From positions 5,154 to 69,153 of the forward strand of contig CAZSMG010000002.1 of NCBI GenBank assembly GCA_964608075.1: DNA of 64,000 nt, in the 5' to 3' direction. Shown piece by piece: positions 47,896-63,431 of the stretch. Position numbers and translations under genes: made by a program. This DNA is from an uncultured Clostridium sp. GTDB lineage: Bacteria > Bacillota > Clostridia > TANB77 > CAG-508. Each line of letters starts with the position of its first letter. The stretch's first letter is position 1. The notes under the pieces were generated by a model. It worked only from the letters and a program-made list of their open reading frames with translations. It had not been told where the DNA came from and made no database searches.

Positions 47896-47979
47896 CTAAA
47901 AAGATTACTTTTTTAAATGTTTTCTATAAAAATTATAAATTATTTTTTCAAAAAAGTAAATAAAAATTGATAAAAAATT

Positions 47980-48220: not shown

Positions 48221-48245
48221 ATAAGATCAGAAATGGAGAAAAAAT

Positions 48246-48866
48246 ATGAGAGTAATTATGGATGAATTTGATCATGTCTTTTTACCTTATTGGAAAATAC
48301 TAGACAAATTAAAAATATTAAATATAAAAACTAAAAATGGAAAAGAGATAAGTCATAAAGATTTGCGAAAGGCAATATCTGTTATGATAAAAAAACATCC
48401 TACATGTAGATGGAGAAGTGAAAAAATTAGAAGTAAAAGATATTACATTTTGTTTGAAGGATATCTATGGTTAATATACGTATATTTTCAATCAGAAAAG
48501 AAACAAATAGATGCTGATGTAGATTTTTTCAAACTGAGAATAGGAGTATATGAAGAATTTTTAAAAGTAAATCCTGAATCATTATGGAATGAAGATATAA
48601 GTTTTTCGGATTTAGAAAATTATTTTCACAGAAAGAAAGATACAATACATAGAGCAATGGTGAAAATGGCTAAAGAAAATTTTGGAAATACTTTTACTTA
48701 TTATGATAATGATAAATTACTTGTTTCAAAAGAAGGCATTGAATGGCTATGTAAAAATTGTTTCAAGCAAAAGTATTTGGAATTATTAGAAGAATACAAA
48801 ATGGAATTAACAGAAAAATACATTGAAGCAGGATATGTTTATGATGAATTTTTTGGAATGAATTAA
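48246..48866 (+). CDS. Hypothetical protein (206 aa)
   Basis: ORF immediately downstream of the hairpin cluster. No recognisable motif. Confidence 0.5.
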   Translation: MRVIMDEFDHVFLPYWKILDKLKILNIKTKNGKEISHKDLRKAISVMIKKHPTCRWRSEKIRSKRYYILFEGYLWLIYVYFQSEKKQIDADVDFFKLRIGVYEEFLKVNPESLWNEDISFSDLENYFHRKKDTIHRAMVKMAKENFGNTFTYYDNDKLLVSKEGIEWLCKNCFKQKYLELLEEYKMELTEKYIEAGYVYDEFFGMN

Positions 48867-48880
48867 AGGAGGTATCGATT

Positions 48881-49282
48881 ATGAAACATTATTTAAATCC
48901 AGATCAAAGAAGAAAAAGTATAAAAGTATGGGTTTCTGATGAAGAAAGAGCTTTAGTTGAAGCTAAAGCATACAATTATGGCTATAGAAGGATTGCACCA
49001 TATATTAGAGATGCAGCAATTTATGAAAGAGTAACTAATGTAGAAGTAAAAGGAGAAAAAGAAATTCTTAATGCATATGCTGAGAATACTAGAGAAGTTA
49101 AAAGTATCGTTAAAGATATAAGACATATTTGTAAATTTGCTACACAAATTTCTGAAAGAGATAGACAGGAACTTTTACATCTAATGAAAGCCATATATAA
49201 AAAGCAAAATAAAATGCTAGATCTTATTGATAAAAAACTTGATTTAGAGGTATGGCAAGAAGTTAATCGTAATAAAAATTAA
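48881..49282 (+). CDS. MobC-like ribbon-helix-helix mobilisation/relaxosome accessory protein (tentative)
   Basis: N-terminal RKSIKVWVSDEERALVEAKAYNYGYRRIAPYIRDAAI pattern typical of MobC/RHH proteins. AGGAGG RBS. Confidence 0.5.
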   Translation: MKHYLNPDQRRKSIKVWVSDEERALVEAKAYNYGYRRIAPYIRDAAIYERVTNVEVKGEKEILNAYAENTREVKSIVKDIRHICKFATQISERDRQELLHLMKAIYKKQNKMLDLIDKKLDLEVWQEVNRNKN

Positions 49283-49354
49283 AAATAAATAATGTGTAAT
49301 TTATTGAGAAAAAAAGATTATTATGATAGAATAACAAAAGTTAAGAGGTGAAAT

Positions 49355-50356
49355 ATGATAGAATTAGGAGAGATATATAATCAAAAGTTGAAAAATAAAA
49401 AATTTATAGATTTATTTTGTGGACTTGGTGGATTTAGATTGGCCTTAGAATCTTATGGCGCAAAATGTGTATTTAGTTCAGACATAGACAAACATGTAAG
49501 TAAGACATATGAAAATAATTTCGGAGATTATCCATTAAGTGACATAACAAAAGTTGATGAGAAAGATATTCCTAAACATGATATTTTATGTGCGGGTTTT
49601 CCATGTCAAGCATTTAGTATATCTGGAAAGCAAAAAGGATTCGAAGATACCAGAGGGACTCTATTTAGAGAAGTTGTGAGAATTGCTAGTTATCATCAAC
49701 CAGAATTATTATTATTAGAAAATGTAAAGAATTTAGAAAAACATGATAGTGGAAGAACTTTTAAAGTAATAAAGGAAAATATAGAAAACATCGGATATAA
49801 TATGTATTCAAAGGTTATAAATGCTTCTAGATATGGTATTCCTCAATCAAGAGAAAGAATTTACATGGTATGCATTAGAAAAGACTTAGATAATAATAAT
49901 TATAAGTTCCCTCTGCCTGTAAATAAAGAAAGATGTGTTAATGACATACTACTTAATAACGGGGAAGAAAAACAATATATCATTAACAAACCATATAAAT
50001 TAAAAGAGAGAAATCAGCAAATAAAAATGTTTAAAGTTTATGACAAGCCAGTAAGAATTGGAACTGTAAATAAAGGTGGACAAGGCGATAGAATATATGA
50101 TCCAATGGGACAAGCAATAACATTGTCGGCAGAAGGTGGAGGAACTGGTTCTAAAACGGGATTATATTACATAAATAACGAGGTTAGAAAACTACATCCT
50201 AGGGAATGTGCAAGATTGATGGGATATCCAGAAAATTATATTATTGATGAATCAGTTAATCAAGCACAAAAACAATTCGGCAACAGTGTAGTTGTAGATG
50301 TTTTGCAATATGTAATAAAAAGTATCATAGATGAGGGGAGTATAAAAAATGGATAG
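49355..50356 (+). CDS. DNA (cytosine-5)-methyltransferase, M.HhaI-like
   Basis: Motif I FCGLGGF, motif IV GFPCQAFS, motif VI LLENV, and the C-terminal RKLHPRECARLMGYP...QFGNSVV. Extensive collinearity with M.HhaI as recalled from memory, including the TRD segment GKGGQG-RIY...ITLSA-GGG. Confidence 0.9.
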   Translation: MIELGEIYNQKLKNKKFIDLFCGLGGFRLALESYGAKCVFSSDIDKHVSKTYENNFGDYPLSDITKVDEKDIPKHDILCAGFPCQAFSISGKQKGFEDTRGTLFREVVRIASYHQPELLLLENVKNLEKHDSGRTFKVIKENIENIGYNMYSKVINASRYGIPQSRERIYMVCIRKDLDNNNYKFPLPVNKERCVNDILLNNGEEKQYIINKPYKLKERNQQIKMFKVYDKPVRIGTVNKGGQGDRIYDPMGQAITLSAEGGGTGSKTGLYYINNEVRKLHPRECARLMGYPENYIIDESVNQAQKQFGNSVVVDVLQYVIKSIIDEGSIKNG

Positions 50357-51092
50357 TTCAGGGGGTTCAAAAATAGCAAAAGATGGATTTGAAAATGAAA
50401 AGGATATTGCTAATAAATTTATTAATTGGAAAGATGATATAGAAGCACAACAATGGTTAAAAACCATGGGATATAATCTAAATGATATTGAATATGTTTA
50501 TGCAGAAGTTTTACATGGATATAAAACGGATGTACAAGTTCAAGTAACAATAAAACTCAAAAATATTATTGATGCACAAAATTTACAAGTAAAGTTAGTA
50601 AGTAATGCAAAAGGATTCAATCAAATAGATAAAAGATGGATAAAAAATTATGCTGAAATGTGGGAAATGCCTGATAATATAGTTAGATTGCTAAAATATT
50701 ATACGGGAGAGTTTGAACCATATAAGAAAGATACAAGAGATAAAAGAAGAATGTTTATGGATGAATTTTCAGAACAAGAACAAAATGAAATATTAGAATA
50801 CTTTGAACAAAATAAAATGCTTATTATCTTAGACATTGTAAAAGGAAGGGGAAAATTTGCAGCCGAATGGATTTTAGTTGCACAAAAGTATGAAGATATA
50901 TTTAGATGGATATTGAAGCCTATAAATGTTGCTATTAATCATTATAGTGAAGGAAAAGTAGAAATAACTAATAGAGGAAACTTGAAAATTGGAAGAATTG
51001 GAATGCAGAGGAAGGGTGGAGATGCGGGAAGAGAAACCGCAAATATGTTACAGTTTAAAGTAGATCCAATTGAATTGTTTAATTTAAATTAA
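50349..51092 (+). CDS. Putative cognate Type II restriction endonuclease (247 aa)
   Basis: Its start overlaps the methyltransferase stop by 8 nt (translational coupling). The size is typical of small Type IIP enzymes. A terminator hairpin follows at 51108-51145. Confidence 0.5.
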   Translation: MDSSGGSKIAKDGFENEKDIANKFINWKDDIEAQQWLKTMGYNLNDIEYVYAEVLHGYKTDVQVQVTIKLKNIIDAQNLQVKLVSNAKGFNQIDKRWIKNYAEMWEMPDNIVRLLKYYTGEFEPYKKDTRDKRRMFMDEFSEQEQNEILEYFEQNKMLIILDIVKGRGKFAAEWILVAQKYEDIFRWILKPINVAINHYSEGKVEITNRGNLKIGRIGMQRKGGDAGRETANMLQFKVDPIELFNLN

Positions 51093-51164: not shown

Positions 51165-54100
51165 ATGGAAGAGAACACAAATTATGAAGTATTAATTCCT
51201 AATAATATGATTGAAAATAAGGCAGAAGACGCATTAGAATTTGCATTAAAAAATGAGAAGATAAGAAATGTTGCGATAACTGGGCAATATTCTTCAGGAA
51301 AATCAAGTATGATACAATCATATTTTGGTAAATATTGTAAAGAAAAGGAATATTTAAATATATCATTAGCGACATTTGAGAAAAAAGAAAATGCAAATGA
51401 ACCTATTGAAGAATCTAATTCATTGGAAAGAGTTATAATAGAAAAGTTATATTATTCTTTTTTAAAAAAATATGATAAACAAGAAAATATAAAAGAATCT
51501 ATACTAACAGGTATTCTTGTTGCATTTATTAATATAGGAATATACTTATTTAATATTGAAGCAATAAGAAATAGTTTAAATGATAACTTTTGGACAACTC
51601 TAATATTTATTTTCTTAGAAATAATATGTTTAACAAGCATAATAGGATGTTCTATATCATTTGTAATGAATTTTCAGAAGATTAAATTGAAACTAGGAGA
51701 TGTTGAAGTAGAAGTAAATCATAATAGTAAAGAAACTAGCCGTAATTTATTAAATGAGGAAATAGATTTTATTGTAAAAATTATGAGTATTGCTAAATAT
51801 AAGTATATTGTATTTGAAGATTTAGATAGATTTCAAAATCCAAAGATATTTGAAAGATTGAGGGATTTAAATATTACATTAAATTCGACATTAAAGAATA
51901 AAGTGAAATTTATATATGCGATAAAAGATGAAATGTTTATTGCAGACAATAGAACTAAATTTTTTGATTTTATTATACCTGTTGTGCCATATGTGTCTTA
52001 TGAAAATTCAGGAGAAGAATTGTTAAAAATAATAAGAAAGCATGGATTGGAGAATGAACTGTCCGAAGATTTTATTTTAGATATTGCACTATATATACCT
52101 GATATGAGAATATTAAAAAACACAATAAACGAATACATTATTTATAAGAAAACTCTTGATAAGAAGCCACCAAATTATGAGAAATTATTTTCTATTTTAT
52201 TATATAAAAATACTTGTTCACAGGATTTTGCCAAACTACAAAATAAAGACGGTGAAGTATATAAATGTTTTTCTAAAAAAAGCGAAGTAATCGAGAAATA
52301 TATTGAAGAAAAACAAGAAGAAATTGAAGACAAAAAGAAAGAACATAAAGAACTAGAAAAGAATTTAATATCCAAAAACAGTATTAAAGAACTTGCAGTA
52401 TATTATATGAAAAGTATATCTAAAGATTATCAAGTGACATTAAAAAGCATAGAGGGAAAAGAAGTAAGAATACAATTAGGTATGAATGTAGAGAATATTT
52501 CAGATAACATTTTATTTTCAGACAATACAACAATAGAATATGTATATAATGGAAGTTGGAAAACAGAAAATTTATCTAATTTTTTCAAAGAAAAGTGCCC
52601 AGGATTTTTTGAACAATATGAGATTTTTAGAGAAGGTGTAGATGATATAAAAGAAAAAATTAGCATGGAAATAGGAAAGATAAACGAAGAGATTGATAAG
52701 ATAAGAGAATGTACATTAAGTGAACTATTGCAAGAGAATGGAAAAATTGTAACAGTAAGTTTAGGGAAATATAGTGATTTAATTAAATATTTGCTAAATA
52801 ATGGCTATATTGATGAAAATTATAGTACATATATTAATAAATTTCACGAAGGAAGTATTACAGAGAATGATTATAATTTTATAATGAATGTAAGAAATGG
52901 AAAACAAAATAATTATAAAGATAAATTAGACAATACTATAAAAATAATAAAAAGACTAAAAAATGCAGAATTCAAAAAAGAAGAAATATTGAATATAGAT
53001 ATATTAGATGTTCTGATTGAAAATGATCTATATGTTGAGAAAAAGAATATATTTTTTTCAACACTAATAAAATCAAATAGATATGTAGAATTTATTAAAT
53101 ATTGTATATGTGAATCAGAAACATTTAAAAACAAAAATAAAATGATTACAAATTTATGCAAATTAGATAAGGACATATTGAACAAAGTGCAAGATTCTAA
53201 AATTGAAAATAGATATAAAAATTTCATTCTGGAAGATATTATAATAAAAATAGAAATAGATAATTTAAAAGAACTAAATAATATAGATGAGATACTTAAA
53301 TATAGTGAAGAAAACAACCTACTAAAAAAGGCAAAAATAGTTGATATAAAAGATAAAATTGACCAATTTGATATAAAGTATAATAATATTTCTGAATTTA
53401 AAGATAATATTGATTTATATAAATACATTGTAGAGAATAATAAATATAAGATTAATTATGAAAATATATTAGAAATACTTATGAACGAAAGTAAGAGTAA
53501 TAAAGATGAAATAGAAGAAGAGAACTACTATAGTATATCTAAAAATAAACAGTTAAAAAAATATATAGATGAAGATATAGAATTTTATATTGGTAATGTA
53601 TATAGTAAATTACCTAAAAAACAAAAGAATCCTATAGGGATAGTAGTAGATCTACTAAATAATTCTAATATGAATGCTGAAAGTAAACGAAAAATTATAA
53701 TAAAAGAAATTAACAAAATTGAAGACATATCAGAAATACAAGACAGTGGCTTATGGAAAGTTATATTTGACAATAATTTAGTAAAATTAGGATGGAAAAA
53801 TATAAACAATTATTATGAGAAATTAGGATTAGATGAAACATTAATAAATATATTTAATGACAAAGAAAAAAGAAAGTTATTATTACAAGATAATATAAAA
53901 ATTGAAGATAATAGTAATTCAGAATTTATAAGAGATTTATTGTTATCTAATAATTTAAATGAAGAGGCACATAGTTTAATATTAAAAAATAGTGAATACA
54001 AATTAAGTAATGTTGAAATAAGCGAATTAAAAGAAGAGAAACTTCTGAAATTAGTAAATAATAAAAGAATTGAATTTAGCAATGAGATGATAGAAAAGGT

Positions 54101-54635
54101 GAGGGCTTATTCAGTAAAAATGCTAATAGCATTTATAAAGAATAATTATAATAATTTTTATAAAGAAATTGATAATGATAGTATTGTATTTAATTTGGAA
54201 GAAATAAATGGAATTCTTGAATCAGATGTTACACCAAATATGAAAAATAAGTGTATTAATATGATTCGAAATGATGAAATAGAAAGTCTACCAATAGTTT
54301 TATTAGAGAATATTTCATTAGTATCTATAAATAATAACTTAAAAGATAATATAAGTGAAGAAATTCTATTAAAGATTATTATGAATATACAAAATATAGA
54401 ATCAAAGATAAAATTGATAAACTTAAATTTTAGTAAAGTAAGTAGAGATAATATAGATATATTACTAAAAAGTTTAGGTGAGGATTATTATAAAATAATT
54501 GTTAACAGAACAAGGCCAAGTTTAAAACATAATGAATCTAATATATTACTATTAGAAAATATCAAAAGTTTAGGATATAAAATTAAACATGAAACTAATG
54601 GGCAAACTATAAAATTAAAAAATACAATTAGATAA
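51165..54635 (+). CDS. KAP-family P-loop NTPase (1156 aa) with TM helices inserted in the NTPase domain and a long K/E/N-rich helical C-terminal region
   Basis: Walker A ITGQYSSGKSS, Walker B KYIVFEDLDRF. Two to four hydrophobic helices (ILTGILVAFINIGIYLF, TTLIFIFLEIICLTSIIGCSISFV) lie between them. This is the KAP hallmark. Confidence 0.8.
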   Translation: MEENTNYEVLIPNNMIENKAEDALEFALKNEKIRNVAITGQYSSGKSSMIQSYFGKYCKEKEYLNISLATFEKKENANEPIEESNSLERVIIEKLYYSFLKKYDKQENIKESILTGILVAFINIGIYLFNIEAIRNSLNDNFWTTLIFIFLEIICLTSIIGCSISFVMNFQKIKLKLGDVEVEVNHNSKETSRNLLNEEIDFIVKIMSIAKYKYIVFEDLDRFQNPKIFERLRDLNITLNSTLKNKVKFIYAIKDEMFIADNRTKFFDFIIPVVPYVSYENSGEELLKIIRKHGLENELSEDFILDIALYIPDMRILKNTINEYIIYKKTLDKKPPNYEKLFSILLYKNTCSQDFAKLQNKDGEVYKCFSKKSEVIEKYIEEKQEEIEDKKKEHKELEKNLISKNSIKELAVYYMKSISKDYQVTLKSIEGKEVRIQLGMNVENISDNILFSDNTTIEYVYNGSWKTENLSNFFKEKCPGFFEQYEIFREGVDDIKEKISMEIGKINEEIDKIRECTLSELLQENGKIVTVSLGKYSDLIKYLLNNGYIDENYSTYINKFHEGSITENDYNFIMNVRNGKQNNYKDKLDNTIKIIKRLKNAEFKKEEILNIDILDVLIENDLYVEKKNIFFSTLIKSNRYVEFIKYCICESETFKNKNKMITNLCKLDKDILNKVQDSKIENRYKNFILEDIIIKIEIDNLKELNNIDEILKYSEENNLLKKAKIVDIKDKIDQFDIKYNNISEFKDNIDLYKYIVENNKYKINYENILEILMNESKSNKDEIEEENYYSISKNKQLKKYIDEDIEFYIGNVYSKLPKKQKNPIGIVVDLLNNSNMNAESKRKIIIKEINKIEDISEIQDSGLWKVIFDNNLVKLGWKNINNYYEKLGLDETLINIFNDKEKRKLLLQDNIKIEDNSNSEFIRDLLLSNNLNEEAHSLILKNSEYKLSNVEISELKEEKLLKLVNNKRIEFSNEMIEKVRAYSVKMLIAFIKNNYNNFYKEIDNDSIVFNLEEINGILESDVTPNMKNKCINMIRNDEIESLPIVLLENISLVSINNNLKDNISEEILLKIIMNIQNIESKIKLINLNFSKVSRDNIDILLKSLGEDYYKIIVNRTRPSLKHNESNILLLENIKSLGYKIKHETNGQTIKLKNTIR

Positions 54636-54750
54636 TAATTATTGTATAAAATTTCAATATATAAGATATTAACTTAAATTCATTTCGTTGTCAAAAGGTG
54701 TTATTTATGATAGAATGCTATCAAATAATTATATTTTTAGGAGACCAATT

Positions 54751-54936
54751 ATGAAAATTAAGTGTTTAATTTGTGGAAACATAATAGAATCAAAAAGTGT
54801 ACATGATTTAGCATCTTGCAAATGTGAATCGTGTTATATTGATGGTGGAAGTTATTATGCACATATAGGTGCAAGAGACTTTAATAAAATTGTTAAAATT
54901 TTGGATGATGGAATAGAAGTTAAATGTTGCAATTAA
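54751..54936 (+). CDS. Small zinc-ribbon protein (about 61 aa)
   Basis: CLICGN...CKCESC...CC pattern. AGGAG RBS 7 nt upstream of the MKIKCLICG start. The track ORF starts at 54688. A terminator-like hairpin (gcaaaata...tattttgc plus T-run) follows. Confidence 0.5.
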   Translation: MKIKCLICGNIIESKSVHDLASCKCESCYIDGGSYYAHIGARDFNKIVKILDDGIEVKCCN

Positions 54937-55091
54937 TATATGAATAACAAAAGAAAGGCAAAATAGTAATGTGATTAATTTTACAAGATTATTTTGCTTT
55001 TTTTGATAATTAATTACAAGTTTCGACAAATTATTTAATTAAAAAGTAATATAATATTAAAGTAATAATATATGTAAAAGGAGTCAAGTAA

Positions 55092-57440
55092 ATGAATATT
55101 GTAGAAAATGGAGTAAAAGTAGATTTTCACATACATTCTATTGCATCTAAACATAAAGAAGAGTCAGGAAAAGTTGAAAATTCGACAATTGATAAATTGG
55201 ATATATTAATAAAAAATCTAAATGATAGACAAATCAATATGTGTTCAATTTCTGATCATGATAATTTTGATATAAATATTTATAAAGCTTTAAAGAAACA
55301 AGAAAACAAAGGATCTATAAAGAAAGTTTTACCAGCAGTAGAATTTTCAGTAAAGTATGATTCAAAAGTAATACATATTATTACAATTTTTGAAGATAAT
55401 GATGACAATAAATTGGAGAATATTAACAAACTTATATTTGATAATAAGAAAAATATTCCATTATATGACCAAGAAATGTCATTTTCAGAAGAAAAATTTT
55501 TAGAGATATTAAAGAAAATAGATTTAAATGTTGTTATGATTGCACATCAAAAAGAAAGTTTAACAAGTAATAAAATAAGAAACAATGATGTTATGTCTTT
55601 AGGAAAAGAAAAATTTAATGAATTAGTATTTATAGATTATTTTGAATCTTTTGAATTCAAAAACAAAAGAAATGAAATATTTAATAAATATTATATAGAA
55701 AATAATCAAGAAAATTTAAATAGTGAAGATTTAAGATTTATTACTGGAAGTGATTGTCATAAATGGAGTGAGTATCCATTAGAAGATGAAAAATTCTCTT
55801 TTACTTATTTAAAATGTTTGCCAACATTTAGAGGATTGGCAATGGCAATTACAAATACTAAAAGAATAAAATTAGTAAATAGCTTTTTTTCAAATAGTGA
55901 TAATAAAGTTGATAGTATAAAGATTTCGATTAATGGTAAGGAAAAAAATATTCCTTTATCAAGAGGAATAAATGCGATCATAGGAGATAATTCAATAGGA
56001 AAATCATTATTACTTCATAAAATAACTAATTATGAATACTTAAAAGATTCAAAAATAGAAAAGAAGTATGAAGAGTATTTAAACAAAAATAATATTCAAC
56101 TTGAAACATCTATTTCACAAGATAAAATATATAGAGTTGATAAACAGGGTGCAGTAAGGGAAATGTTTGAAAAAAAGACTTTTAATGTAAATGGATTTTT
56201 AAATGAATATTTTCCTCCTGTACCAAATGTTGAAAAATATAAAACTAAGGTAAAGGATGAAATACATAGATATATACAAGATATAAAGGATAATTATGAT
56301 TATAGAGAAAATAAAAAGAAAATATCTAGTTTTTATATAAAATATTTTGAAGAAAATGCAAAATCATTAAATCTTCAAAAAACTAGAAAGAATTTTAAAG
56401 CTAAAATCCAAAAACTAAATAATATTATAGCTGAGTTTGAAGATATTAATTTGAAGCTAGATAAACTAATTAAAAATAAAGATGTTTTTGAAGATGATGT
56501 TAAATTATTGGAAGAACAGAAGAATATTTATTATAAATTGATAGATAAATATAATCAAGAAATTGAAAGGTGGAAATTTGAAAATAGTAAGATTAAGATT
56601 GTAAATGATTGCTTAGGAAAATTGGCACAGAAGTTACAGAAATCTAAAACTGATAATACAAAGGCAATAGAAAATTACGAAAACACATTAGAGACATTCG
56701 AAGATAATATCGTAAATTTATATTTGCAATCAAAAAAAGAAAGAATCTATTCTGCGAATATAAAGAAGGAAATAATTCCTATAGAATATAATAATGTTGG
56801 TACATATAGATTTATTAATAAATGTGATGTTGAAGAAGTATCAAATGAGTATATTATAAAAAGTATTCAAAAGGTATTAGGCAAAAAAATTAAAGATATA
56901 AATACTTTAACAGAAGATAATATTTCAGAGAAGCTAGAAGGAGAAGACTTTTACGAAAAATTAGATAATTTAGAGAAAGAAATATACAAAAAGATTGAAT
57001 CAGACTTTAAATACAAGCCAATAATAAATAACTTAGAGGATAAAGATATTACTAAAGAATTGTCAGCTGGATTTAATTCAAAGATATATTTTGATATATT
57101 ATCCGAACAAAGTCAAAAAGATGGTATATATATAATAGATCAACCAGAAGATGATGTATCACAAAAGTCAATTAAAGAGTATTTGTTAGAAGATTTTTAT
57201 AATATGAGTCAAAATAGACAAATTATCTTAGTAACGCATAACCCTCAATTTATTGTAAATTTAGATGTTGATAATGTCATTTATCTAGGAAAGAATGAGG
57301 ATAATGAAATTATAGTACAAAGTGGAGCATTGGAGTATTTTAATGAAGAATATGATATGTTAAAAATTGTGGCAGATAATATAGATGGAGGAATTAGTTC
57401 TATTAATGAAAGGTGGAAAAGATATGAAAAAAATATATAA
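55092..57440 (+). CDS. PHP-domain phosphoesterase fused to an ABC-type (OLD/Rad50-like) ATPase with a coiled-coil insert
   Basis: N-terminal PHP motifs DFHIHSIAS and SISDHDN. Walker A GDNSIGKS. A long coiled-coil segment of about 300 aa. Signature-like LSAGFN, Walker B IYIIDQPEDD, H-loop ILVTHNPQF. Confidence 0.8.
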   Translation: MNIVENGVKVDFHIHSIASKHKEESGKVENSTIDKLDILIKNLNDRQINMCSISDHDNFDINIYKALKKQENKGSIKKVLPAVEFSVKYDSKVIHIITIFEDNDDNKLENINKLIFDNKKNIPLYDQEMSFSEEKFLEILKKIDLNVVMIAHQKESLTSNKIRNNDVMSLGKEKFNELVFIDYFESFEFKNKRNEIFNKYYIENNQENLNSEDLRFITGSDCHKWSEYPLEDEKFSFTYLKCLPTFRGLAMAITNTKRIKLVNSFFSNSDNKVDSIKISINGKEKNIPLSRGINAIIGDNSIGKSLLLHKITNYEYLKDSKIEKKYEEYLNKNNIQLETSISQDKIYRVDKQGAVREMFEKKTFNVNGFLNEYFPPVPNVEKYKTKVKDEIHRYIQDIKDNYDYRENKKKISSFYIKYFEENAKSLNLQKTRKNFKAKIQKLNNIIAEFEDINLKLDKLIKNKDVFEDDVKLLEEQKNIYYKLIDKYNQEIERWKFENSKIKIVNDCLGKLAQKLQKSKTDNTKAIENYENTLETFEDNIVNLYLQSKKERIYSANIKKEIIPIEYNNVGTYRFINKCDVEEVSNEYIIKSIQKVLGKKIKDINTLTEDNISEKLEGEDFYEKLDNLEKEIYKKIESDFKYKPIINNLEDKDITKELSAGFNSKIYFDILSEQSQKDGIYIIDQPEDDVSQKSIKEYLLEDFYNMSQNRQIILVTHNPQFIVNLDVDNVIYLGKNEDNEIIVQSGALEYFNEEYDMLKIVADNIDGGISSINERWKRYEKNI

Positions 57441-57699
57441 TTTTGAAGAAAATGAGGAAGCATATGCAATTTTTTTTGAAGAAACAGAAGTATATACAAT
57501 TAATAAGGATAATTTAAAGGTAGATGGAACTAGATTTTATGAAACTTTTTTTAGCGAATACTCTATTGGCGATACCATAGAATTAAATAAAGGCAATAGT
57601 GTTGATAATAGCAATAAACTATCAATTGCTATTTATGATACTATAAACAAATTGATAAATGAGATAATTAAAAAAATAGATGAAGAAAAAGAGGAGTAA
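57424..57699 (+). CDS. Small acidic protein (91 aa) translationally coupled to the PHP-ATPase gene
   Basis: ATG at 57424 overlaps the last 17 nt of the upstream gene in another frame. A terminator follows directly. Confidence 0.5.
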   Translation: MKKIYNFEENEEAYAIFFEETEVYTINKDNLKVDGTRFYETFFSEYSIGDTIELNKGNSVDNSNKLSIAIYDTINKLINEIIKKIDEEKEE

Positions 57700-57727
57700 G
57701 AAGGCGAAACAATCGCCTTCTTTGAGA
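57700..57727 (+). terminator. Rho-independent terminator
   Basis: Hairpin gaaggcg-aaacaa-tcgccttc followed by TTTG. Confidence 0.7.
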
Positions 57728-57732
57728 GTATA

Positions 57733-59197
57733 GAAAAAGTTGTGTAAATAAATCCTTCCGTGATAAAATATAAAATATCAAGGAGGGATTTTTTCTATGG
57801 GTAAAAAAGTAGAAAAAGAAAAAAATGAATTAGTAGAGGAGTTTTTTAGAAGAAATGATCCAAAAAATATTAAATCTATGAATGATATGTATGCAGCATG
57901 GAAAGATTTCTTTGCTCCTGCTTTCCAACAATTGCTAGATGCAGAAATGGAGGCTAAAATTGGTTATTCTAAAAATGAAAGAACAGATAATAACAATTAT
58001 CGAAATGGATATTATCCAGAAAGAACTGTAGCAACAGAAATGGGAGATATTCCAGTAAAAGTACCTAGAGATAGAAATGGAGAAATTGACTCTAATTTAG
58101 TTCCTAAATATTCACGAACAGCAAATGGATTTGATGAAAAGGTAATATCTATGTATGCTTTAGGAATGTCTGATAAAGATATTCAAGAACAAATAAAGGA
58201 AATATTTGGTTGTAATCTTTCACCAGACATGATAAGTGATATAACAGATAAGATTATACCAGAAATACAAGAATGGCAAAAAAGGAAACTAGAAAGTGTT
58301 TATCCAATAGTATTCATAGATGCAACACATTTCCATGTCCGCGATAACGGACAAATAGTAAAGAAAGCTGCATATGTAGTGTTAGGAATTGATAAAGATG
58401 GAATGAAGAAAGTATTAACAATAACAATAGGAGAAAATGAAAGTGCAAAATATTGGATGACAGTATTAAATGAACTCAAAAATCGAGGAGTACAAGATAT
58501 TCTAGTATTATGTGCAGATGGACTAACAGGACTAAAAGATGCAATATCAGCTATTTATCCTAAAACAGAATATCAAAGATGTATAGTACATCAAATAAGA
58601 AACTCATTAAAGTATGTTCCATACACAGATAGAAAAGAATTAGCTAATGACTTAAAAACAGTTTACAAGGCAAGTACAGAAGAAATCGGCTATACAAATT
58701 TATTAGAATTAGAAGAAAAATGGAAAAATAAATATCCTGGTGCAATTCAAAGTTGGATAGATAATTGGGATGTACTTTCCGTATTTTTCAAATTCTCAGC
58801 AGAAATACGAAAAATAATGTATACAACAAATGCAATAGAAAGCTTAAATAGTACATATAAAAGGATTAACAGAAATAGAAATGTATTTCCAACAGATATG
58901 TCTTTACTAAAAGTTCTTTATCTTTCAACATTGAAAGCAGAGAAAAAATGGTCAAGAATGGTTGATAAATGGGACTTATGTTTGTCCCAATTTAGAATTA
59001 TGTATGAAGGTAGAATATAGTTAAAAGCCTAAAATAATAGGCTTAAGAAGAAATTTTCTTAAGTCCTATTAATTTTACACAACTTTTTCTAAAAAATTGA
59101 TTTTTTAGAAAAATATTATTAAAATAAACATAGTTATAAAAATATTAATTTTTTCAAGTTATCAATCGGAAGGAAATCCGATTTACACAACTTTTAC
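57733..59197 (+). mobile_element. IS256-family insertion sequence, with a second nested copy of the right inverted repeat
   Basis: Left IR gaaaaagttgtgtaaataaatccttcc (57733-57759). Right IR-like ...tcctattaattttacacaactttttc (about 59063-59090). A second IR copy ggaaggaaatccgatttacacaacttttac (59168-59197). A mutator-type transposase gene lies between them. Confidence 0.8.
57797..59020 (+). CDS. IS256-family (mutator-type) transposase
   Basis: 407 aa. Conserved DDE region (VFIDATHFHVRDNG...LVLCADGLTGL...YQRCIVHQIRN). Confidence 0.9.
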   Translation: MGKKVEKEKNELVEEFFRRNDPKNIKSMNDMYAAWKDFFAPAFQQLLDAEMEAKIGYSKNERTDNNNYRNGYYPERTVATEMGDIPVKVPRDRNGEIDSNLVPKYSRTANGFDEKVISMYALGMSDKDIQEQIKEIFGCNLSPDMISDITDKIIPEIQEWQKRKLESVYPIVFIDATHFHVRDNGQIVKKAAYVVLGIDKDGMKKVLTITIGENESAKYWMTVLNELKNRGVQDILVLCADGLTGLKDAISAIYPKTEYQRCIVHQIRNSLKYVPYTDRKELANDLKTVYKASTEEIGYTNLLELEEKWKNKYPGAIQSWIDNWDVLSVFFKFSAEIRKIMYTTNAIESLNSTYKRINRNRNVFPTDMSLLKVLYLSTLKAEKKWSRMVDKWDLCLSQFRIMYEGRI

Positions 59198-59271
59198 GAT
59201 ATTCTCCTTCCTTTCTCCTTTTTGACATTTTAAAGTGCAATTTTATATTTTTAAAGTGCAAATTTTGCACT

Positions 59272-59577
59272 TTAAAATGAAACATTATTATTACAACATC
59301 CCATAATCAACTGCACCCCATCTACAAAACCATTCCTATAATACTTCTCATTCCAATAATCAATATAATTCATAAAATTCTCATCAAGAAAACCAAGCTG
59401 TTTTTGAACATATTTCCTATCTTTTTTAGGAACACGTTTTAAAATCCTTTCAGAAATCTCATCAAAATAAATATGATGTTTTCTATCCTCATCACAAGTC
59501 AAAGAACATAAATCCTCCTCTCTAAAATTTAACCAATCTTTTAAAATATCATTATTAACCTCTCTAAAATTATTCAT
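59272..59577 (-). CDS. Hypothetical protein (about 101 aa)
   Basis: GGAGG RBS with an 8-nt spacer to the MNNFREV start. The track ORF begins at 59607. Confidence 0.45.
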   Translation of the reverse strand: MNNFREVNNDILKDWLNFREEDLCSLTCDEDRKHHIYFDEISERILKRVPKKDRKYVQKQLGFLDENFMNYIDYWNEKYYRNGFVDGVQLIMGCCNNNVSF

Positions 59578-59695
59578 TGTTAAAACCTCCATTTTTATAA
59601 ATTTCAAAATTTAACACATCAAAACACAATAAAACTTGCAAATACAAATTCAAAAATCCATTGAAATTTCATGTATTTGATGCCTCAAAAAACTG

Positions 59696-60101: not shown

Positions 60102-63032
60102 ATGAACGAAAAGGAATTAATATACGAAGGAATTGAAACTGCGTTTATTAACTATAATAATCAATCGAATGTAGCATATAAACCACAATTTATATCAAAT
60201 GATTATAAAGAAGGAAGAAAGGTAATATCAACTCTAGAAGACGAACTATTAAAATGTGATAAATTTGATATTAGTGTAGCATTTATAACAGATGGAGGAA
60301 TTGCACCATTATTACAAACATTAAAATTACTAGAAAGCAAAAATATTAAAGGAAGAATTCTAACAACTGATTATTTAGGTTTTAATGATCCTAAAGCATT
60401 AAAAAAATTAACTCAATTCAAAAATATAGAATTAAAAATGTATATGACAGAAAGTTCTGGAGAAGGATTCCATACGAAAGGATATATGTTTAAAAACAAA
60501 GATATATACAGAATAATTATTGGAAGCTCTAATATGACTCAAAAAGCATTATCTGTTAATAGAGAATGGAATACTAAAATTGTATCAACAGAACAAGGAG
60601 AGTATGCGAAAGAAATTCTTAGTGAATTTGAAGGATTATGGGAATCAAAGTATACCTTAGCGTATGAAGATTTTATTGAAAAATATGAATTAAAATATAA
60701 AATAATAAAAGAACAAAGAAGAATTGCGAGCTCTAAGGCAATACCAACTATTAAAGAATATAAATTACAGCCTAATGCTATGCAAGTAAGTTTTATAAAT
60801 AATTTAAATAAAATAGTGGAAATGGGAGAAAATAAAGCTTTATTAATTTCAGCTACTGGTACTGGAAAAACATATGCTTCAGCTTTTGCGTTAAGAGATG
60901 CAAAACCAAGAAGAGCACTATTTTTAGTACATAGAGAGCAAATTGCAAAACAAGCGATTGAAAGTTACAAGAAAATATTTGGAAAAACAAAAACTTTTGG
61001 ATTGCTTTCTGGAAATTCTAAAGATTTTAAAACAGATTATTTATTTTCTACAATGCAAATGATGAGTAAAGAGGAGATATATACTAAATTTAAAAAGGAT
61101 GAATTTGATATAATTGTTATAGATGAAGCACATCGAGTAGGCGCTAGTAGTTATCAAAAACTTATACAATATTTTAAGCCAAAGTTATTATTAGGAATGA
61201 CTGCATCACCTGAAAGGACGGATGGATATGATGTGTATAAAGAATTTAACTATAATATAGCATATGAAATTAGATTGGAACAAGCATTAGAAGAAAATTT
61301 TCTATGCCCTTTTCATTACTTTGGAATAACTGACCTAGAATTTGAAGGGGAAACGATAAATGAAGAAACAAAATTAAGGGACTTCGCAAAATTAACAAGT
61401 GATGAAAGAGTTAAATATATAATAGAGCAAATAGAATTTTATGGACATTCTGGTACAAACATAAATGGACTCGTTTTCTGTAGCTCTAAAAAAGAAGCTC
61501 AGATACTAAGTAATAAATTTAATGAAAAAGGATATTTCACAGTAGCACTTACTGGAGAAGATTCACAAGAAAAGAGAGAAGAAGCAATTAATAGATTAAC
61601 TTCTAAAAATATTGAAGAAAAGATAGATTATATTTTTACAGTAGATATTTTTAACGAGGGTGTTGATATACCAGAAATTAATCAAATAATAATGTTAAGG
61701 CCAACAGAATCTCCAATTGTATTTGTACAACAATTAGGAAGAGGGTTAAGAAAAGCATCAGACAAAGAATATGTAGTTATACTTGATTTTATAGGAAATT
61801 ATAAAAATAACTTTATGATTCCAATAGCATTATCAGGAGACCGCAGTTATAATAAAGATAATATACGTAGGTATGTGTTAGAAGGAGATAGAGTTATTCC
61901 AGGATCTTCAACGATTCATTTTGATGAAATATCTAAAAAAAGAATATTTGAAGCGATTGATAGCGCTGATTTTACTGATATAAAATTAATTAAAGAAAAT
62001 TATACTAATTTAAAAAATAAATTAGGGCATATTCCGTCATTGTTAGATTTTGATAAATATGGTGAAATGGATGTATTAAAAATTTTTGATAATAAGAGTT
62101 TAGGCTCGTATTATAAGTTTTTAACAAAATATGAAAAAGATTATAAAGTTAGATTATTAGAGAATGAAGAAAAAGTTATTGAATTTATATCTAAAAAGTT
62201 AGCAAGTGGAAAAAGAATACATGAATTAGAATTATTAAAAATTATGATTACAGAAGATGTTCAATTATTTACAAAACTTAGGGATAAACTTTCAAAGATA
62301 TATAATATAAATATTACAGAACAAGAAGAAAGAAGCGTTATAAATATATTGACTAATAATTTTGCTTCGGGTTCAAGTAAAAATACATATAAAGAATGTG
62401 TTTTTATTGAAGAAAAAAATAATAATGATTATAGTAAAACAGAATCATTTAAAAATATGTTAAATAATCAAGAATTTAAGAAGATCTTTGAAGAACTAAT
62501 TGAATTTGGAATTAGTAGATATAATCAAAATTATAGTAAAAAATATCAAGATACTCAGTTAGTAATATATCAAAAATATACATATGAAGATGTATGTAGA
62601 CTATTAAATTGGAGAAATAACGAAGTTCCACTTAATATAGGTGGATATAAATTTGATAAAGATACAAAAACATTTCCTGTTTTTATTAACTATGATAAAA
62701 ATGATGAAATTAATGATAGTATAAAATACGAAGATCACTTTGAAAGTAGTAATAAATTAATAGCTATCTCCAAAAGTGGAAGAAATATAAATTCAGAAGA
62801 TGTACAAAATCTTATTAATGCAAAAGATAGGGGAATAAAAGTTGAATTATTTGTTAGGAAAAATAAAGATGATAAAATCTCAAAAGAATTTTACTATTTA
62901 GGTAGAATGAATGCTACAGGAAAAGTTAGAGAATTTATTATGCCTAATACAAATAAAACAGCAGTAGAGATAGAGTGGATATTAGAAGCGCCTGTAAGAG
63001 AAGATATATATGAATATATAATAGATTGTTAA
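60102..63032 (+). CDS. SauUSI-like Type IV (modification-dependent) restriction enzyme: PLD-family nuclease, SF2 helicase/ATPase and a C-terminal specificity domain
   Basis: N-terminal HKD motif (HTKGYMFKNKD...GSSNMT). Helicase motifs I (ISATGTGKT), II (VIDEAHRV) and III (TASPER). A C-terminal domain of about 250 aa. 976 aa. Confidence 0.75.
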   Translation: MNEKELIYEGIETAFINYNNQSNVAYKPQFISNDYKEGRKVISTLEDELLKCDKFDISVAFITDGGIAPLLQTLKLLESKNIKGRILTTDYLGFNDPKALKKLTQFKNIELKMYMTESSGEGFHTKGYMFKNKDIYRIIIGSSNMTQKALSVNREWNTKIVSTEQGEYAKEILSEFEGLWESKYTLAYEDFIEKYELKYKIIKEQRRIASSKAIPTIKEYKLQPNAMQVSFINNLNKIVEMGENKALLISATGTGKTYASAFALRDAKPRRALFLVHREQIAKQAIESYKKIFGKTKTFGLLSGNSKDFKTDYLFSTMQMMSKEEIYTKFKKDEFDIIVIDEAHRVGASSYQKLIQYFKPKLLLGMTASPERTDGYDVYKEFNYNIAYEIRLEQALEENFLCPFHYFGITDLEFEGETINEETKLRDFAKLTSDERVKYIIEQIEFYGHSGTNINGLVFCSSKKEAQILSNKFNEKGYFTVALTGEDSQEKREEAINRLTSKNIEEKIDYIFTVDIFNEGVDIPEINQIIMLRPTESPIVFVQQLGRGLRKASDKEYVVILDFIGNYKNNFMIPIALSGDRSYNKDNIRRYVLEGDRVIPGSSTIHFDEISKKRIFEAIDSADFTDIKLIKENYTNLKNKLGHIPSLLDFDKYGEMDVLKIFDNKSLGSYYKFLTKYEKDYKVRLLENEEKVIEFISKKLASGKRIHELELLKIMITEDVQLFTKLRDKLSKIYNINITEQEERSVINILTNNFASGSSKNTYKECVFIEEKNNNDYSKTESFKNMLNNQEFKKIFEELIEFGISRYNQNYSKKYQDTQLVIYQKYTYEDVCRLLNWRNNEVPLNIGGYKFDKDTKTFPVFINYDKNDEINDSIKYEDHFESSNKLIAISKSGRNINSEDVQNLINAKDRGIKVELFVRKNKDDKISKEFYYLGRMNATGKVREFIMPNTNKTAVEIEWILEAPVREDIYEYIIDC

Positions 63033-63044
63033 TGGAGGAGTAAA

Positions 63045-63431
63045 ATGAAGGATATAAAAGTTGTTGCAGCAATTATTATTGATAAGAATAAAATATTTGC
63101 TACTCAAAGAGGATATGGAGAATTTAAAGATGGCTGGGAATTTCCAGGAGGAAAAATAGAAGAAGGAGAAACGGCAGAAGAGGCACTACTTAGAGAAATA
63201 CAAGAAGAGTTAGATACTAAAATAAGTATTAAAGGTAAAATTGATACAGTAGAATATGATTATCCAAAATTCCATCTTTCAATGGATTGTTTTGTATGTA
63301 ATATAATAGAGGGAGATTTAATATTGAAGGAACATGAAGCGGCAAAATGGCTTTCAAAAGATGAATTATACAGTGTTGATTGGTTACCAGCTGATAAAGG
63401 ATTAATCGAAAAAATCAAAAGTTATATATAA
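63045..63431 (+). CDS. NUDIX hydrolase (MutT/NudG-like (d)NTP pyrophosphohydrolase)
   Basis: Nudix box GGKIEEGETAEEALLREIQEELD. 128 aa. 12 nt downstream of the Type IV enzyme gene. Confidence 0.8.
   Translation: MKDIKVVAAIIIDKNKIFATQRGYGEFKDGWEFPGGKIEEGETAEEALLREIQEELDTKISIKGKIDTVEYDYPKFHLSMDCFVCNIIEGDLILKEHEAAKWLSKDELYSVDWLPADKGLIEKIKSYI

What the first reader, a model, noticed from the sequence alone, without database searches (positions are those of the whole stretch)
55092..57727. Single-chain PHP-nuclease / Rad50-like ABC ATPase with a translationally coupled 91-aa partner: candidate defence module (Ppl-like?)
The 782-aa protein joins an N-terminal PHP phosphoesterase domain (DFHIHS, DHD) to an ABC ATPase. 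The ATPase Walker A (GDNSIGKS) and Walker B/H-loop (IIDQPEDD, VTHNP) are separated by a roughly 300-aa coiled-coil insert. This is an SbcCD/Mre11-Rad50-like or OLD/GajA-like logic, with PHP replacing the usual Mre11 or Toprim nuclease. A small acidic ORF overlaps its 3-prime end by 17 nt, so the two form a two-gene unit. It sits in a defence-island context (R-M, KAP NTPase, integrase) and ends at a terminator just before an IS256-family insertion. From memory it resembles the PHP-ATPase Ppl family reported in large defence screens. I cannot verify that here, and the coupled small protein may be a new partner.
Basis: partly seen in the sequence, partly recalled or inferred. Interest (0 to 1): 0.8.

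Follow-up and report, generated by a model that had tools for sequence, protein, structure and literature searches.

The report
Two-gene PHP-nuclease/ABC-ATPase defence candidate
This is an intact two-gene cassette in a defence island: a nuclease fused to a Rad50/SMC-like ATPase plus a tiny acidic partner, an undetected and untested relative of the known anti-phage protein Ppl and of the candidate system PDC-M49.

Summary
ORF 55092-57440 (782 aa) has a complete PHP metal site fused to an ABC ATPase with every ABC motif and a coiled-coil insert of about 170 aa. The model is confident (pLDDT 91). A 91-aa acidic ORF (57424-57699) overlaps it by 17 nt and has its own Shine-Dalgarno sequence.

The pair was found together in every locus read, in all 13 loci checked by hand and in 8 more where it was gene-called. 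In these loci the large protein is 27-95% identical to the window's. The small ORF is under purifying selection. It folds confidently (pLDDT 93) into a beta-beta-beta-alpha-beta-alpha domain with no significant solved relative.

The cassette has its own hairpins and moves between R-M, Tmn, Avs-like and Abi neighbourhoods on mobile elements.

It fails the curated cut-offs for Ppl (41 vs 1000 bits) and TrlF (157 vs 350 bits), so it is not a member of either. It does belong to the same PHP-ABC superfamily (hhalign probability 99.3-99.8%).

The idea of a small partner is not new. PADLOC's untested candidate PDC-M49 has the same layout, including an acidic, overlapping partner of 94-100 aa. The window's pair is essentially invisible to those models.

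Verdict: a new variant of a known kind. The defence role and the mechanism are inferred, not shown.

The parts
54951..55004 (+). Stable hairpin followed by a T-run, between the upstream DUF7695 gene and the cassette. It insulates the cassette on its 5' side.
   Evidence: Fold -21.1 kcal/mol, z = -7.5. Sequence. The stretch is conserved in close relatives.
55023..55052 (+). Promoter-like site, TCGACA-18 nt-TAATAT. This is inferred, not shown.
   Evidence: Consensus scan. TTTCGACAAATT and TATAAT are conserved in W, L001, L005, L003 and L024. Promoter-like sites are not enriched over shuffles in this AT-rich DNA.
55077..55083 (+). Ribosome-binding site AAAGGAG, 8 nt upstream of the ATG of the large gene.
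   Evidence: Sequence read directly.
55092..57440 (+). Large gene, 782 aa: a PHP phosphoesterase fused to an SMC/Rad50-type ABC ATPase.
   Evidence: ORF. A family of 234 or more 50%-identity clusters at E<=1e-30, nearly all 760-820 aa. AF2 pLDDT 91.4. dN/dS 0.08-0.12.
55092..55877 (+). PHP domain (aa 1-262) with a full set of metal ligands: H13, H15, D55/H56, E84, H95, H152, E188, D221, H223.
   Evidence: Invariant or nearly invariant columns. Foldseek matches to the PHP esterase 3o0f (E 1.2e-5), RNase AM 9etk/7ug9 and Cv1693 2yb1. Weak NCBIfam hits to RNase RNM and pAp phosphatase.
55914..56171 (+). ABC ATPase N-lobe (aa 275-360). It holds Walker A GDNSIGKS (aa 298-305, nt 55983-56006) and the Q-loop Q352.
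   Evidence: Invariant G298, N300, G303, K304 and Q352. A profile search of the PDB matches the AriA, Rad50 and SMC P-loop regions.
56232..56732 (+). Helical coiled-coil insert (aa 381-547). It is poorly conserved in sequence and has no CxxC hook at the apex near residue 518.
   Evidence: AF2 helices 381-409, 436-460, 467-516 and 521-547. Conservation profile. Foldseek matches to RecN, SMC, Rad50 and AriA heads with coiled coils.
57012..57437 (+). ABC ATPase C-lobe (aa 641-782). It holds the signature LSAG (657-660), Walker B and D-loop IYIIDQPEDD (679-688), the H-loop THNP (715-718), and a conserved C-terminal extension (N723, D725, G745, G766, G767, R774, Y778).
   Evidence: Invariant columns. 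This is the only stretch that the Ppl models match.
57411..57416 (+). Shine-Dalgarno AGGTGG for the small gene. It lies inside the last codons of the large gene (the R-W of RWKRY), 7 nt upstream of the small gene's ATG.
   Evidence: Sequence. The same arrangement occurs in relatives.
57424..57699 (+). Small gene: 91 aa, acidic (pI 4.4, net charge -10), overlapping the large gene by 17 nt. The predicted fold is beta-beta-beta-alpha-beta followed by a long alpha helix.
   Evidence: Present and overlapping in 13 of 13 loci checked by hand, with 8 more gene-called. The start methionine is invariant. dN/dS 0.10-0.43. AF2 pLDDT 93.4. The acidic character is conserved.
57698..57722 (.). GC-rich hairpin directly after the small gene's stop codon. 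It is terminator-like and marks the 3' edge of the cassette.
   Evidence: Scan. Fold -14.5 kcal/mol, z = -4.7. An equivalent hairpin occurs in L001 and L005. The T-tail on the + strand is short.

Best explanation
This is a self-contained, horizontally mobile two-gene anti-phage or anti-foreign-DNA module.

Subunit A is a Ppl/TrlF-superfamily enzyme. A PHP trinuclear-metal phosphodiesterase, the nuclease effector, is fused to an SMC/Rad50-type ABC ATPase. The ATPase heads should dimerise around two ATP molecules, and its short coiled coil should provide the clamp or lever.

By analogy with Ppl, the nucleotide state of the ATPase, and probably of the PHP site, would hold the nuclease off in healthy cells. 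DNA ends or abnormal DNA, together with NTP depletion during infection, would switch on exonucleolytic degradation.

Subunit B is the translationally coupled 91-aa acidic protein. It is proposed to be a stoichiometric, non-catalytic regulatory subunit. Most likely it is a safety catch or adaptor bound to the ATPase head or coiled coil, gating the nuclease.

What is shown here: the architecture, the intact catalytic motifs, the conservation of the pair, purifying selection, and the defence and mobile-element context. What is inferred: defence activity, substrate, nuclease polarity, the trigger, and the role of B.
For: - Complete PHP and ABC motif sets are invariant across 120 homologues.
- The model is confident, and its folds match PHP esterases or RNase AM, and AriA, RecN, SMC or Rad50.
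- Family members match the Ppl, TrlF and Spaf_1101 models.
- hhalign gives probability 99.8% to a TrlF protein and 99.3% to a bona fide PDC-M49A, in both cases over the full length.
- The small gene accompanies the large one in every locus examined, down to 27% identity.
- The cassette, from about 54947 to 57707, is bounded by hairpins and moves as a unit. Its neighbours differ from place to place: type II R-M plus Tmn plus a type IV REase plus PDC-S07 in the window; type IIG R-M plus AbiU2 plus AAA_21/RloB in L001; type I R-M in L004; nSTAND3 and an SLFN-like helicase in L024-L027; AbiGi, PemK, MazE, integrases and Mob genes elsewhere.
- Ppl is an experimentally supported anti-phage exonuclease regulated by NTPs and 3'-OH ends (PMC12904381; PMC13434339, citing Xu et al., Mol Cell 2026).
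Against: - No experiment exists on this family, and none on PDC-M49, which is explicitly untested.
- The protein falls far below the curated cut-offs for Ppl, TrlF and Spaf_1101, so transferring Ppl's mechanism is an extrapolation across less than 25% identity.
- The nearest PHP folds are RNase AM and pAp phosphatases. These act 5'-3' on RNA or small oligonucleotides, so the substrate and polarity could differ from Ppl's.
- Nothing here shows that B binds A. B has no conserved charged catalytic or ligand residues; only Y39 and L77 are nearly invariant.
- Some neighbourhoods of the 56%-identical relative are not obviously defensive, for example radical-SAM genes and an OpuA transporter.
Confidence: 0.62

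Rival explanations
1. It is an addiction (toxin-antitoxin-like) module that stabilises the mobile element. A is a nuclease toxin, and the acidic B is its labile antitoxin or DNA-mimic inhibitor. Any phage protection would be a side effect.
For: - B is small, acidic and translationally coupled, and it evolves faster than A.
- The cassette rides on integrative elements and plasmids, next to PemK/MazE, Fst and RES toxins.
Against: - The gene order is large gene first, which is unusual for type II TA systems.
- The solo relatives TrlF and Ppl exist without B, so A-type proteins are not intrinsically lethal.
- A carries a full ATP-driven regulatory engine of its own.
- The cassette is repeatedly embedded among R-M and Abi genes.
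Confidence: 0.15
2. It targets other mobile elements, such as plasmids or conjugative DNA, rather than phages. It would be a Wadjet- or Lamassu-like SMC-type sensor of foreign DNA topology or ends, used in conflicts between mobile elements.
For: - The ATPase fold is nearest to SMC, RecN, Rad50, AriA and JetC.
- TrlF and PDC-M49 relatives are concentrated on conjugative or mobilisable plasmids.
Against: - The coiled coil is very short, about 50 residues per arm, and has no hinge or hook. Loop extrusion is therefore unlikely.
- The characterised relative, Ppl, acts against phages.
Confidence: 0.13
3. It is a housekeeping DNA-repair or RNA-processing enzyme, an analogue of SbcCD or RNase AM, that happens to lie in the island.
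For: - Structural similarity to Rad50 and RecN, and to RNase AM.
- Weak NCBIfam hits to RNase RNM and pAp phosphatase.
Against: - The distribution is patchy.
- An identical protein sits in different neighbourhoods.
- The cassette is always on islands or plasmids, with integrases or Mob genes nearby.
- The cassette carries its own hairpins and is exchanged as a unit.
Confidence: 0.05
4. The small ORF is not a functional partner. It would be a chance ORF, or a relic that persists only because it overlaps the 3' end of the large gene.
For: It has no hit in any family library and no significant structural match.
Against: - Only 17 of its 276 nt overlap the large gene.
- It is present in every locus, down to 27% identity of the large protein, with a conserved start, length, charge and hydrophobic pattern.
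- dN/dS is 0.10-0.43.
- AF2 pLDDT is 93.
- The analogous gene is annotated in RefSeq plasmids and modelled by PADLOC as PDC-M49B.
Confidence: 0.03

Closest known systems
PDC-M49 (PADLOC phage defence candidate, A+B; Payne et al., bioRxiv 10.1101/2024.01.29.577857)
   Same: - The two-gene layout is identical: a PHP-ABC ATPase followed by an overlapping (20-23 nt), acidic partner of 94-100 aa on the same strand.
- The A proteins are homologous over their full length (hhalign probability 99.3%, E 2.6e-20).
- Both are carried on plasmids or islands.
   Different: - PDC-M49A is about 100 aa shorter (about 680 aa).
- The window's A scores only 20.7 bits (E 2.7e-5) against the PDC-M49A model.
- The window's B has no hit to PDC-M49B at E<=1.
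- B-to-B profile similarity is at best marginal (hhalign P 0.003, probability 10%, collinear).
- PDC-M49 itself is untested.
Ppl (E. coli single-gene PHP+ATPase anti-phage system; NCBIfam NF042955, PADLOC PDLC02208)
   Same: - The domain order is the same: an N-terminal PHP domain and a C-terminal ABC-type ATPase.
- The conserved C-terminal lobe matches the Ppl models.
- Both are found in defence contexts.
   Different: - Only residues 680-777 match (41 bits against a cut-off of 1000).
- There is no hit to the PADLOC Ppl model for the window protein.
- Ppl is about 880-890 aa and works as a single gene, whereas this family always has the small partner.
- Ppl's reported 3'-5' ssDNA exonuclease activity and NTP gating are not tested here.
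TrlF family AAA-like ATPase (NCBIfam NF045780); also Spaf_1101 family (NF045781)
   Same: - TrlF is the best-scoring named family (156.6 bits, E 1.2e-45).
- hhalign probability to a Listeria plasmid TrlF is 99.8%, E 3e-30, over 735 columns.
- The PHP and ABC motifs are the same.
- TrlF genes are plasmid- or island-borne, next to HEPN, RES and PemK genes.
   Different: - The score is below the curated cut-off (350 bits).
- TrlF proteins are 860-940 aa, with a longer helical insert.
- The two TrlF loci read have no overlapping downstream small ORF.
- No paper on TrlF function was found in the library.
Mre11-Rad50 / SbcCD, and RecN/SMC heads
   Same: - An ABC ATPase head is split by an antiparallel coiled coil and works with a metal-dependent nuclease.
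- Rad50, SMC and RecN are top sequence-profile and fold matches.
   Different: - The nuclease is a PHP domain rather than an Mre11/SbcD calcineurin-like phosphoesterase, and it is fused in cis.
- The coiled coil is about 170 aa in total, with no zinc hook or hinge.
- It is not a conserved housekeeping locus.
ABC-ATPase defence pairs: PARIS AriA/AriB, Septu PtuA/PtuB, Gabija GajA/GajB, OLD nucleases
   Same: - The ATPase is of the same broad class: AriA is the top PDB hit (4.9e-9 by profile, 2e-6 by fold), and there are weaker PtuA, GajA and mad3 hits.
- All are two-component logic in defence islands.
   Different: - In those systems the partner, or a fused Toprim domain, is the nuclease or helicase effector.
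- Here the effector (PHP) is already fused to the ATPase, and the partner is a 91-aa protein with no catalytic signature and no Toprim, HNH or helicase domain.

Membership tests
Ppl (NCBIfam NF042955 / PADLOC PDLC02208) | Full-length match to the curated Ppl model above its cut-off | tested here: not met
   41.1 bits against a cut-off of 1000, and only residues 680-777 align. No PADLOC Ppl hit at E<=0.1. Relatives match only their C-terminal 100-130 aa or so.
Ppl (NCBIfam NF042955 / PADLOC PDLC02208) | N-terminal PHP domain plus C-terminal ATPase in one chain | tested here: met
   Motifs and folds.
Ppl (NCBIfam NF042955 / PADLOC PDLC02208) | Single-gene system | tested here: not met
   A conserved, translationally coupled small gene is present in all loci. 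Ppl is described as single-gene in PMC11482910.
Ppl (NCBIfam NF042955 / PADLOC PDLC02208) | Anti-phage activity; NTP-inhibited 3'-5' ssDNA exonuclease activated by 3'-OH ends | not testable with these tools
   Known for E. coli Ppl only from the literature. The primary paper is not held.
TrlF family AAA-like ATPase (NF045780) | Score at or above the curated cut-off (350 bits) | tested here: not met
   156.6 bits, E 1.2e-45, residues 9-554. Homology itself is clear (hhalign probability 99.8%).
PDC-M49 (PADLOC candidate) | Gene A matches a PDC-M49A model | tested here: inconclusive
   E 2.7e-5, 20.7 bits, spanning residues 9-746. A bona fide PDC-M49A scores 1211 bits. hhalign of the family against that protein gives probability 99.3%.
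PDC-M49 (PADLOC candidate) | Gene B matches a PDC-M49B model | tested here: not met
   None of 35 small-protein homologues hit PDC-M49B at E<=1. hhalign probability is 0.5-10%.
PDC-M49 (PADLOC candidate) | Large PHP-ABC gene followed on the same strand by an overlapping gene of about 95 aa | tested here: met
   17-nt overlap in the window, and 20-23 nt in the S. equorum, E. faecalis and Rhizobium PDC-M49-type loci.
PHP (polymerase and histidinol phosphatase) phosphoesterase domain | HxH, D/H, E, H, H and DxH metal ligands on a (beta/alpha)7 barrel | tested here: met
   H13, H15, D55/H56, E84, H95, H152, E188 and D221/H223 are conserved. Foldseek matches 3o0f, 9etk, 7ug9 and 2yb1. The Pfam PHP model itself did not hit at E<=0.1.
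SMC/Rad50-type ABC ATPase | Walker A, Q-loop, signature, Walker B, D-loop and H-loop, with a coiled coil inserted between the N- and C-lobes | tested here: met
   Invariant motifs. AF2 helices 381-547. Profile and fold hits to Rad50, SMC, RecN and AriA.
SMC/Rad50-type ABC ATPase | Zinc hook (CxxC) or hinge dimerisation domain at the coiled-coil apex | tested here: not met
   The apex near residues 516-521 (QKSKTD) has no Cys pair and no globular domain.
OLD / GajA family | ABC ATPase fused to a Toprim nuclease domain | tested here: not met
   There is no Toprim domain. Only the ATPase C-lobe gives weak GajA and OLD matches.

The most novel reading that the evidence does not exclude
The PHP-ABC defence nucleases may split into solo enzymes (Ppl, TrlF) and a large, unrecognised two-subunit branch made up of this family and PDC-M49. 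In that branch a tiny, fast-evolving acidic protein would be the switch. It has a beta-beta-beta-alpha-beta-alpha fold with no significant solved relative. It could act as a DNA-mimicking safety catch or as a phage-sensing adaptor on the ATPase head or coiled coil, and its displacement would license the nuclease. That would be an activation logic not yet described for SMC/Rad50-like immune nucleases.
Probability: 0.3. Interest if true: 0.65.

Novelty: new variant of a known kind. Interest (0 to 1): 0.5.

Why it matters
Ppl has recently become a model for nucleases gated by nucleotide depletion and DNA ends. This window shows an abundant relative that always travels with a small acidic subunit. 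The family has at least 234 clusters at 50% identity and comes mostly from gut Clostridia and Bacilli. Current Pfam, NCBIfam and PADLOC thresholds miss it, so defence-system censuses under-count it. Testing the pair with and without the small gene would do two things. It would validate or reject PDC-M49-type candidates in one step. It would also show whether a 91-aa protein can regulate an SMC-like nuclease. The stakes are moderate. The enzyme class, the defence-island logic and even the two-gene layout are already catalogued, so this extends a known kind rather than founding a new one.

Tried and rejected
- Pfam gave nothing significant for either protein. AAA_21 scored E 0.05 and there was no PHP hit, probably because of the Lys/Asn/Ile-rich composition.
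- PHROGs gave nothing.
- A single-sequence search of the PDB gave only noise.
- Literature searches for 'TrlF', 'TrlF family', 'Spaf_1101', 'PDC-M49' and 'PHP-ATPase' found nothing relevant. I therefore could not establish what TrlF is known to do.
- The primary Ppl paper (Xu et al., Mol Cell 2026) is not held. Ppl's mechanism is cited second-hand from PMC12904381 and PMC13434339.
- Homology between this small protein and PDC-M49B could not be established.
- I looked for an attR repeat of the tRNA-Met 3' end to delimit the island and found none within the window.
- An OLD/GajA (Toprim) reading was rejected, because there is no Toprim domain.
- I considered the 111-aa convergent ORF (59272-59607) as a third component. 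It accompanies only close relatives and sits with TnpV-type element genes, so I treat it as a neighbour.
- No complex (A+B) prediction was possible with the tools.
Full report
**1. The observation**

The window carries an ATG-initiated ORF at 55092-57440 (+) of 782 aa. A second ORF follows on the same strand. If it starts at the ATG at 57424, it encodes 91 aa ending at 57699 and overlaps the large ORF by 17 nt.

AGGTGG lies 7 nt upstream of that ATG, inside the last codons of the large gene. The methionine at this position is the only invariant column when the small proteins of 12 diverse loci are aligned. That supports the 91-aa start over the upstream in-frame ATGs that gene callers often choose.

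A stable hairpin with a T-run (54951-55004; -21.1 kcal/mol, z -7.5) precedes the cassette. A GC-rich hairpin (57698-57722; -14.5 kcal/mol, z -4.7) follows it. A promoter-like TCGACA-18-TAATAT at 55023-55052 and an AAAGGAG ribosome-binding site lie between the upstream hairpin and the large gene. The promoter is only a consensus match in very AT-rich DNA.

**2. The large protein**

Pfam gives nothing significant. A search of 1.84 billion cluster representatives finds 1858 relatives at E<=1e-3 and 234 at E<=1e-30. Nearly all of these are full-length proteins of 760-820 aa.

In a 120-sequence alignment running down to 23% identity, the invariant or nearly invariant residues are exactly the catalytic sets of two domains:
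- PHP ligands: D11, H13, H15, D55/H56, E84, H95, H152, E188, D221/H223.
- ABC ATPase motifs: Walker A G298-x-N-xx-G-K304-S, Q-loop Q352, signature S-A-G660, Walker B and D-loop D683-Q-P-E-D, and H-loop T715-H716.
- A conserved C-terminal extension: N723, D725, G745, G766, G767, R774, Y778.

AlphaFold2 on this alignment gives pLDDT 91.4 and pTM 0.77. The model has a beta/alpha barrel at residues 1-262, an ABC N-lobe, long helices at 381-547, and an ABC C-lobe.

Foldseek against the PDB splits the model accordingly. The N-terminal part matches the PHP esterase BAD_1165 (3o0f), RNase AM (9etk, 7ug9) and Cv1693 (2yb1). The rest matches AriA of PARIS, RecN, SMC heads, Rad50, JetC and PtuA. A sequence-profile search of the PDB agrees, with AriA at 4.9e-9 and Rad50 at 1.7e-7. 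No solved chain has the whole architecture.

The coiled coil proper is about 170 aa rather than 300, and it lacks a hook or hinge.

**3. The small protein**

The small gene is real, and it is an obligate companion of the large one. An overlapping ORF of 88-111 aa follows the large gene in all 13 loci I read by hand. In these loci the large protein is 27-95% identical to the window's. They include two where the gene caller had missed the small ORF. The small gene is also called in 8 further places.

The small proteins align collinearly. They keep their hydrophobic pattern and stay acidic, with net charge between -5 and -11 in 11 of 12. They are under purifying selection, with dN/dS of 0.10-0.43 against 0.08-0.12 for the large gene.

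A profile search of 5.8 billion proteins finds only 60 relatives. All are 83-121 aa, unnamed and without a Pfam domain.

With no conserved acidic catalytic residues, I read this as a small non-enzymatic alpha/beta domain. Its topology resembles half of an RNase-H-like fold, but I do not read it as a nuclease.

**4. Context and mobility**

The window from about 43.1 kb onward is an island next to tRNA-Met (43024-43099). In order, it carries:
- an integrase, phage-type replication genes and a NikA-like gene;
- an M/R.HinP1I-type type II R-M pair;
- a YobI/KAP NTPase that matches PADLOC Tmn;
- a DUF7695 ORF, then the cassette, then an IS256-family element;
- a type IV methyl-directed restriction enzyme (8e-232) and PDC-S07.

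DNA comparison shows that 54947-57707 is shared as a block with relatives at 79-94% identity. In five of these relatives, window position 57707 is joined almost directly to 59285. The IS element, at about 57724-59206 with imperfect terminal inverted repeats, is therefore a later insertion that does not disrupt the cassette.

Elsewhere the same cassette sits in quite different company:
- a type IIG R-M, AbiU2 and an AAA_21/RloB pair in L001, and a type I R-M in L004;
- an nSTAND3 (Avs-like) protein and an SLFN-like helicase in L024-L027;
- AbiGi, PemK, MazE, integrases and Mob genes in other loci.

One 56%-identical relative occurs with identical sequence in several different neighbourhoods, some of them not obviously defensive. 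This is the signature of mobile defence cargo. It is evidence by association only.

**5. Comparison with known families**

NCBIfam places the protein nearest the 'TrlF family AAA-like ATPase' (156.6 bits, cut-off 350). Next come Spaf_1101 (50.5 bits, cut-off 475) and Ppl (41.1 bits, cut-off 1000, residues 680-777 only). PADLOC's Ppl model does not hit the window protein at all at E<=0.1. It hits relatives only over their C-terminal lobe. The protein is therefore not a Ppl or TrlF member by the curated definitions.

It is unambiguously homologous over its full length. hhalign gives probability 99.8% (E 3e-30) to a Listeria plasmid TrlF and 99.3% (E 2.6e-20) to a PDC-M49A protein.

The two bona fide TrlF genes I read have the same motifs but no overlapping small ORF. 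They are 862 aa (Listeria plasmid) and 893 aa (Klebsiella plasmid). Ppl is described as a single-gene system.

The one full-length plasmid hit was in Staphylococcus equorum. It is a 684-aa PHP-ABC protein with an overlapping 94-aa ORF. These score 1211 bits and 140 bits against PADLOC PDC-M49A and PDC-M49B.

The same layout occurs on Enterococcus and Rhizobium plasmids, with 20-nt overlaps and acidic partners of 98-100 aa.

PDC systems are 145 untested candidates derived by 'guilt-by-embedding' in BREX, DISARM and type I R-M loci. PDC-M49 is defined as one A family paired with either of two different B families. This fits the fast divergence of the partner seen here.

Profile comparison of the window's small-protein family with PDC-M49B is marginal. 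It gives P 0.003 at probability 10% for the N-terminal 39 columns, and a separate in-register match of the C-terminal helix. Homology of the partners is plausible but unproven.

**6. Most likely mechanism**

What is shown:
- an intact PHP trinuclear-metal site;
- a complete ATP-sandwich ABC motif set, with a short coiled coil;
- a conserved, co-translated acidic partner;
- a mobile cassette with defence neighbours.

What is inferred: by analogy with Ppl, the ATPase and nucleotide state keep the PHP nuclease off until infection supplies DNA ends and/or depletes NTPs. Ppl is reported as a 3'-5' ssDNA exonuclease. It is inhibited by NTPs bound to both its domains and activated by 3'-OH overhangs.

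The role of the small subunit is the weakest step. I favour a stoichiometric regulatory subunit, either a safety catch or an adaptor. The reasons are that the effector is already fused to the ATPase, the partner has no catalytic signature, it is acidic in both paired clades, and translational coupling ties its synthesis to that of the nuclease.

Polarity and substrate are open. The nearest PHP folds, RNase AM and Cv1693, act 5'-3' on RNA or short oligonucleotides.

The rivals are an addiction module, a function against plasmids or other mobile elements, a housekeeping repair enzyme, and a spurious small ORF. Each is weighed in its own section.

**7. Verdict**

It is a new, currently undetected variant of a known kind: the Ppl/TrlF-type PHP-ABC nucleases, in the two-gene form already flagged computationally as PDC-M49. 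Its value lies in three things: the size of the unannotated family, the universal small partner of unknown fold class, and the clean experiment this suggests. Interest is 0.5.

Noticed in passing
window 57724-59206 (transposase ORF 57797-59020): An IS256-family (Transposase_mut) element with imperfect terminal inverted repeats of about 26 nt. It is inserted just after the cassette's hairpin and is absent at this junction in five related loci. No clean target-site duplication was found.
   Followed up: partly
window 51165-54635: A 1156-aa YobI-like KAP P-loop NTPase (Pfam 3e-86) that matches PADLOC Tmn (1e-55). It is a separate single-gene defence system directly upstream.
   Followed up: partly
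window 54688-54936: A small Cys-rich DUF7695 ORF between Tmn and the cassette. Homologues (67-73% identity) lie upstream of the cassette in L001, L002 and L004, but at different distances. Its function is unknown.
   Followed up: partly
window 59272-59607 (-): A convergent ORF of about 100 aa. It directly follows the cassette in close relatives (51-82% identity in L001-L005 and L024-L027). In L027 it is duplicated next to TnpV genes. It gives no PADLOC hit. It probably belongs to the backbone of a transposon-like element rather than to the module.
   Followed up: partly
window 60102-63431: A PLD-helicase-DUF3427 protein that matches PADLOC type IV methyl-directed restriction enzyme (8e-232). 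It is followed by a 128-aa PDC-S07 homologue (5e-51). The same PLD-helicase-DUF3427 gene type recurs near the cassette in L027.
   Followed up: partly
window 43024-51092: The island starts at tRNA-Met (43024-43099) with a tyrosine integrase (43294-44481, -). It also carries a GNAT gene, DUF6076, a phage replisome-organiser plus a DnaC/IstB-like pair, a NikA-like gene, and an M/R.HinP1I-type type II R-M pair (49355-51092). No attR repeat lies within the window, so the island runs past position 64000.
   Followed up: partly
L017 (Listeria plasmid NZ_CP028184.1) and L018 (Klebsiella plasmid NZ_CP147547.1): TrlF-family PHP-ABC genes are common on conjugative plasmids. A tblastn search hit 439 plasmid records, 306 of them typed as conjugative. 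The genes sit beside PemK/MazE, HEPN, RES and other conflict genes, yet no paper on TrlF function was found in the library.
   Followed up: partly
window 55092-57440 versus PADLOC and Pfam models: 36 of 39 family members hit PADLOC's Ppl model, but the window protein does not, even at E<=0.1. It also misses the Pfam PHP model. This is probably an effect of composition or bias filtering on this 24%-GC, Lys/Asn/Ile-rich sequence. It is a caution for automated defence annotation of very AT-rich genomes.
   Followed up: no
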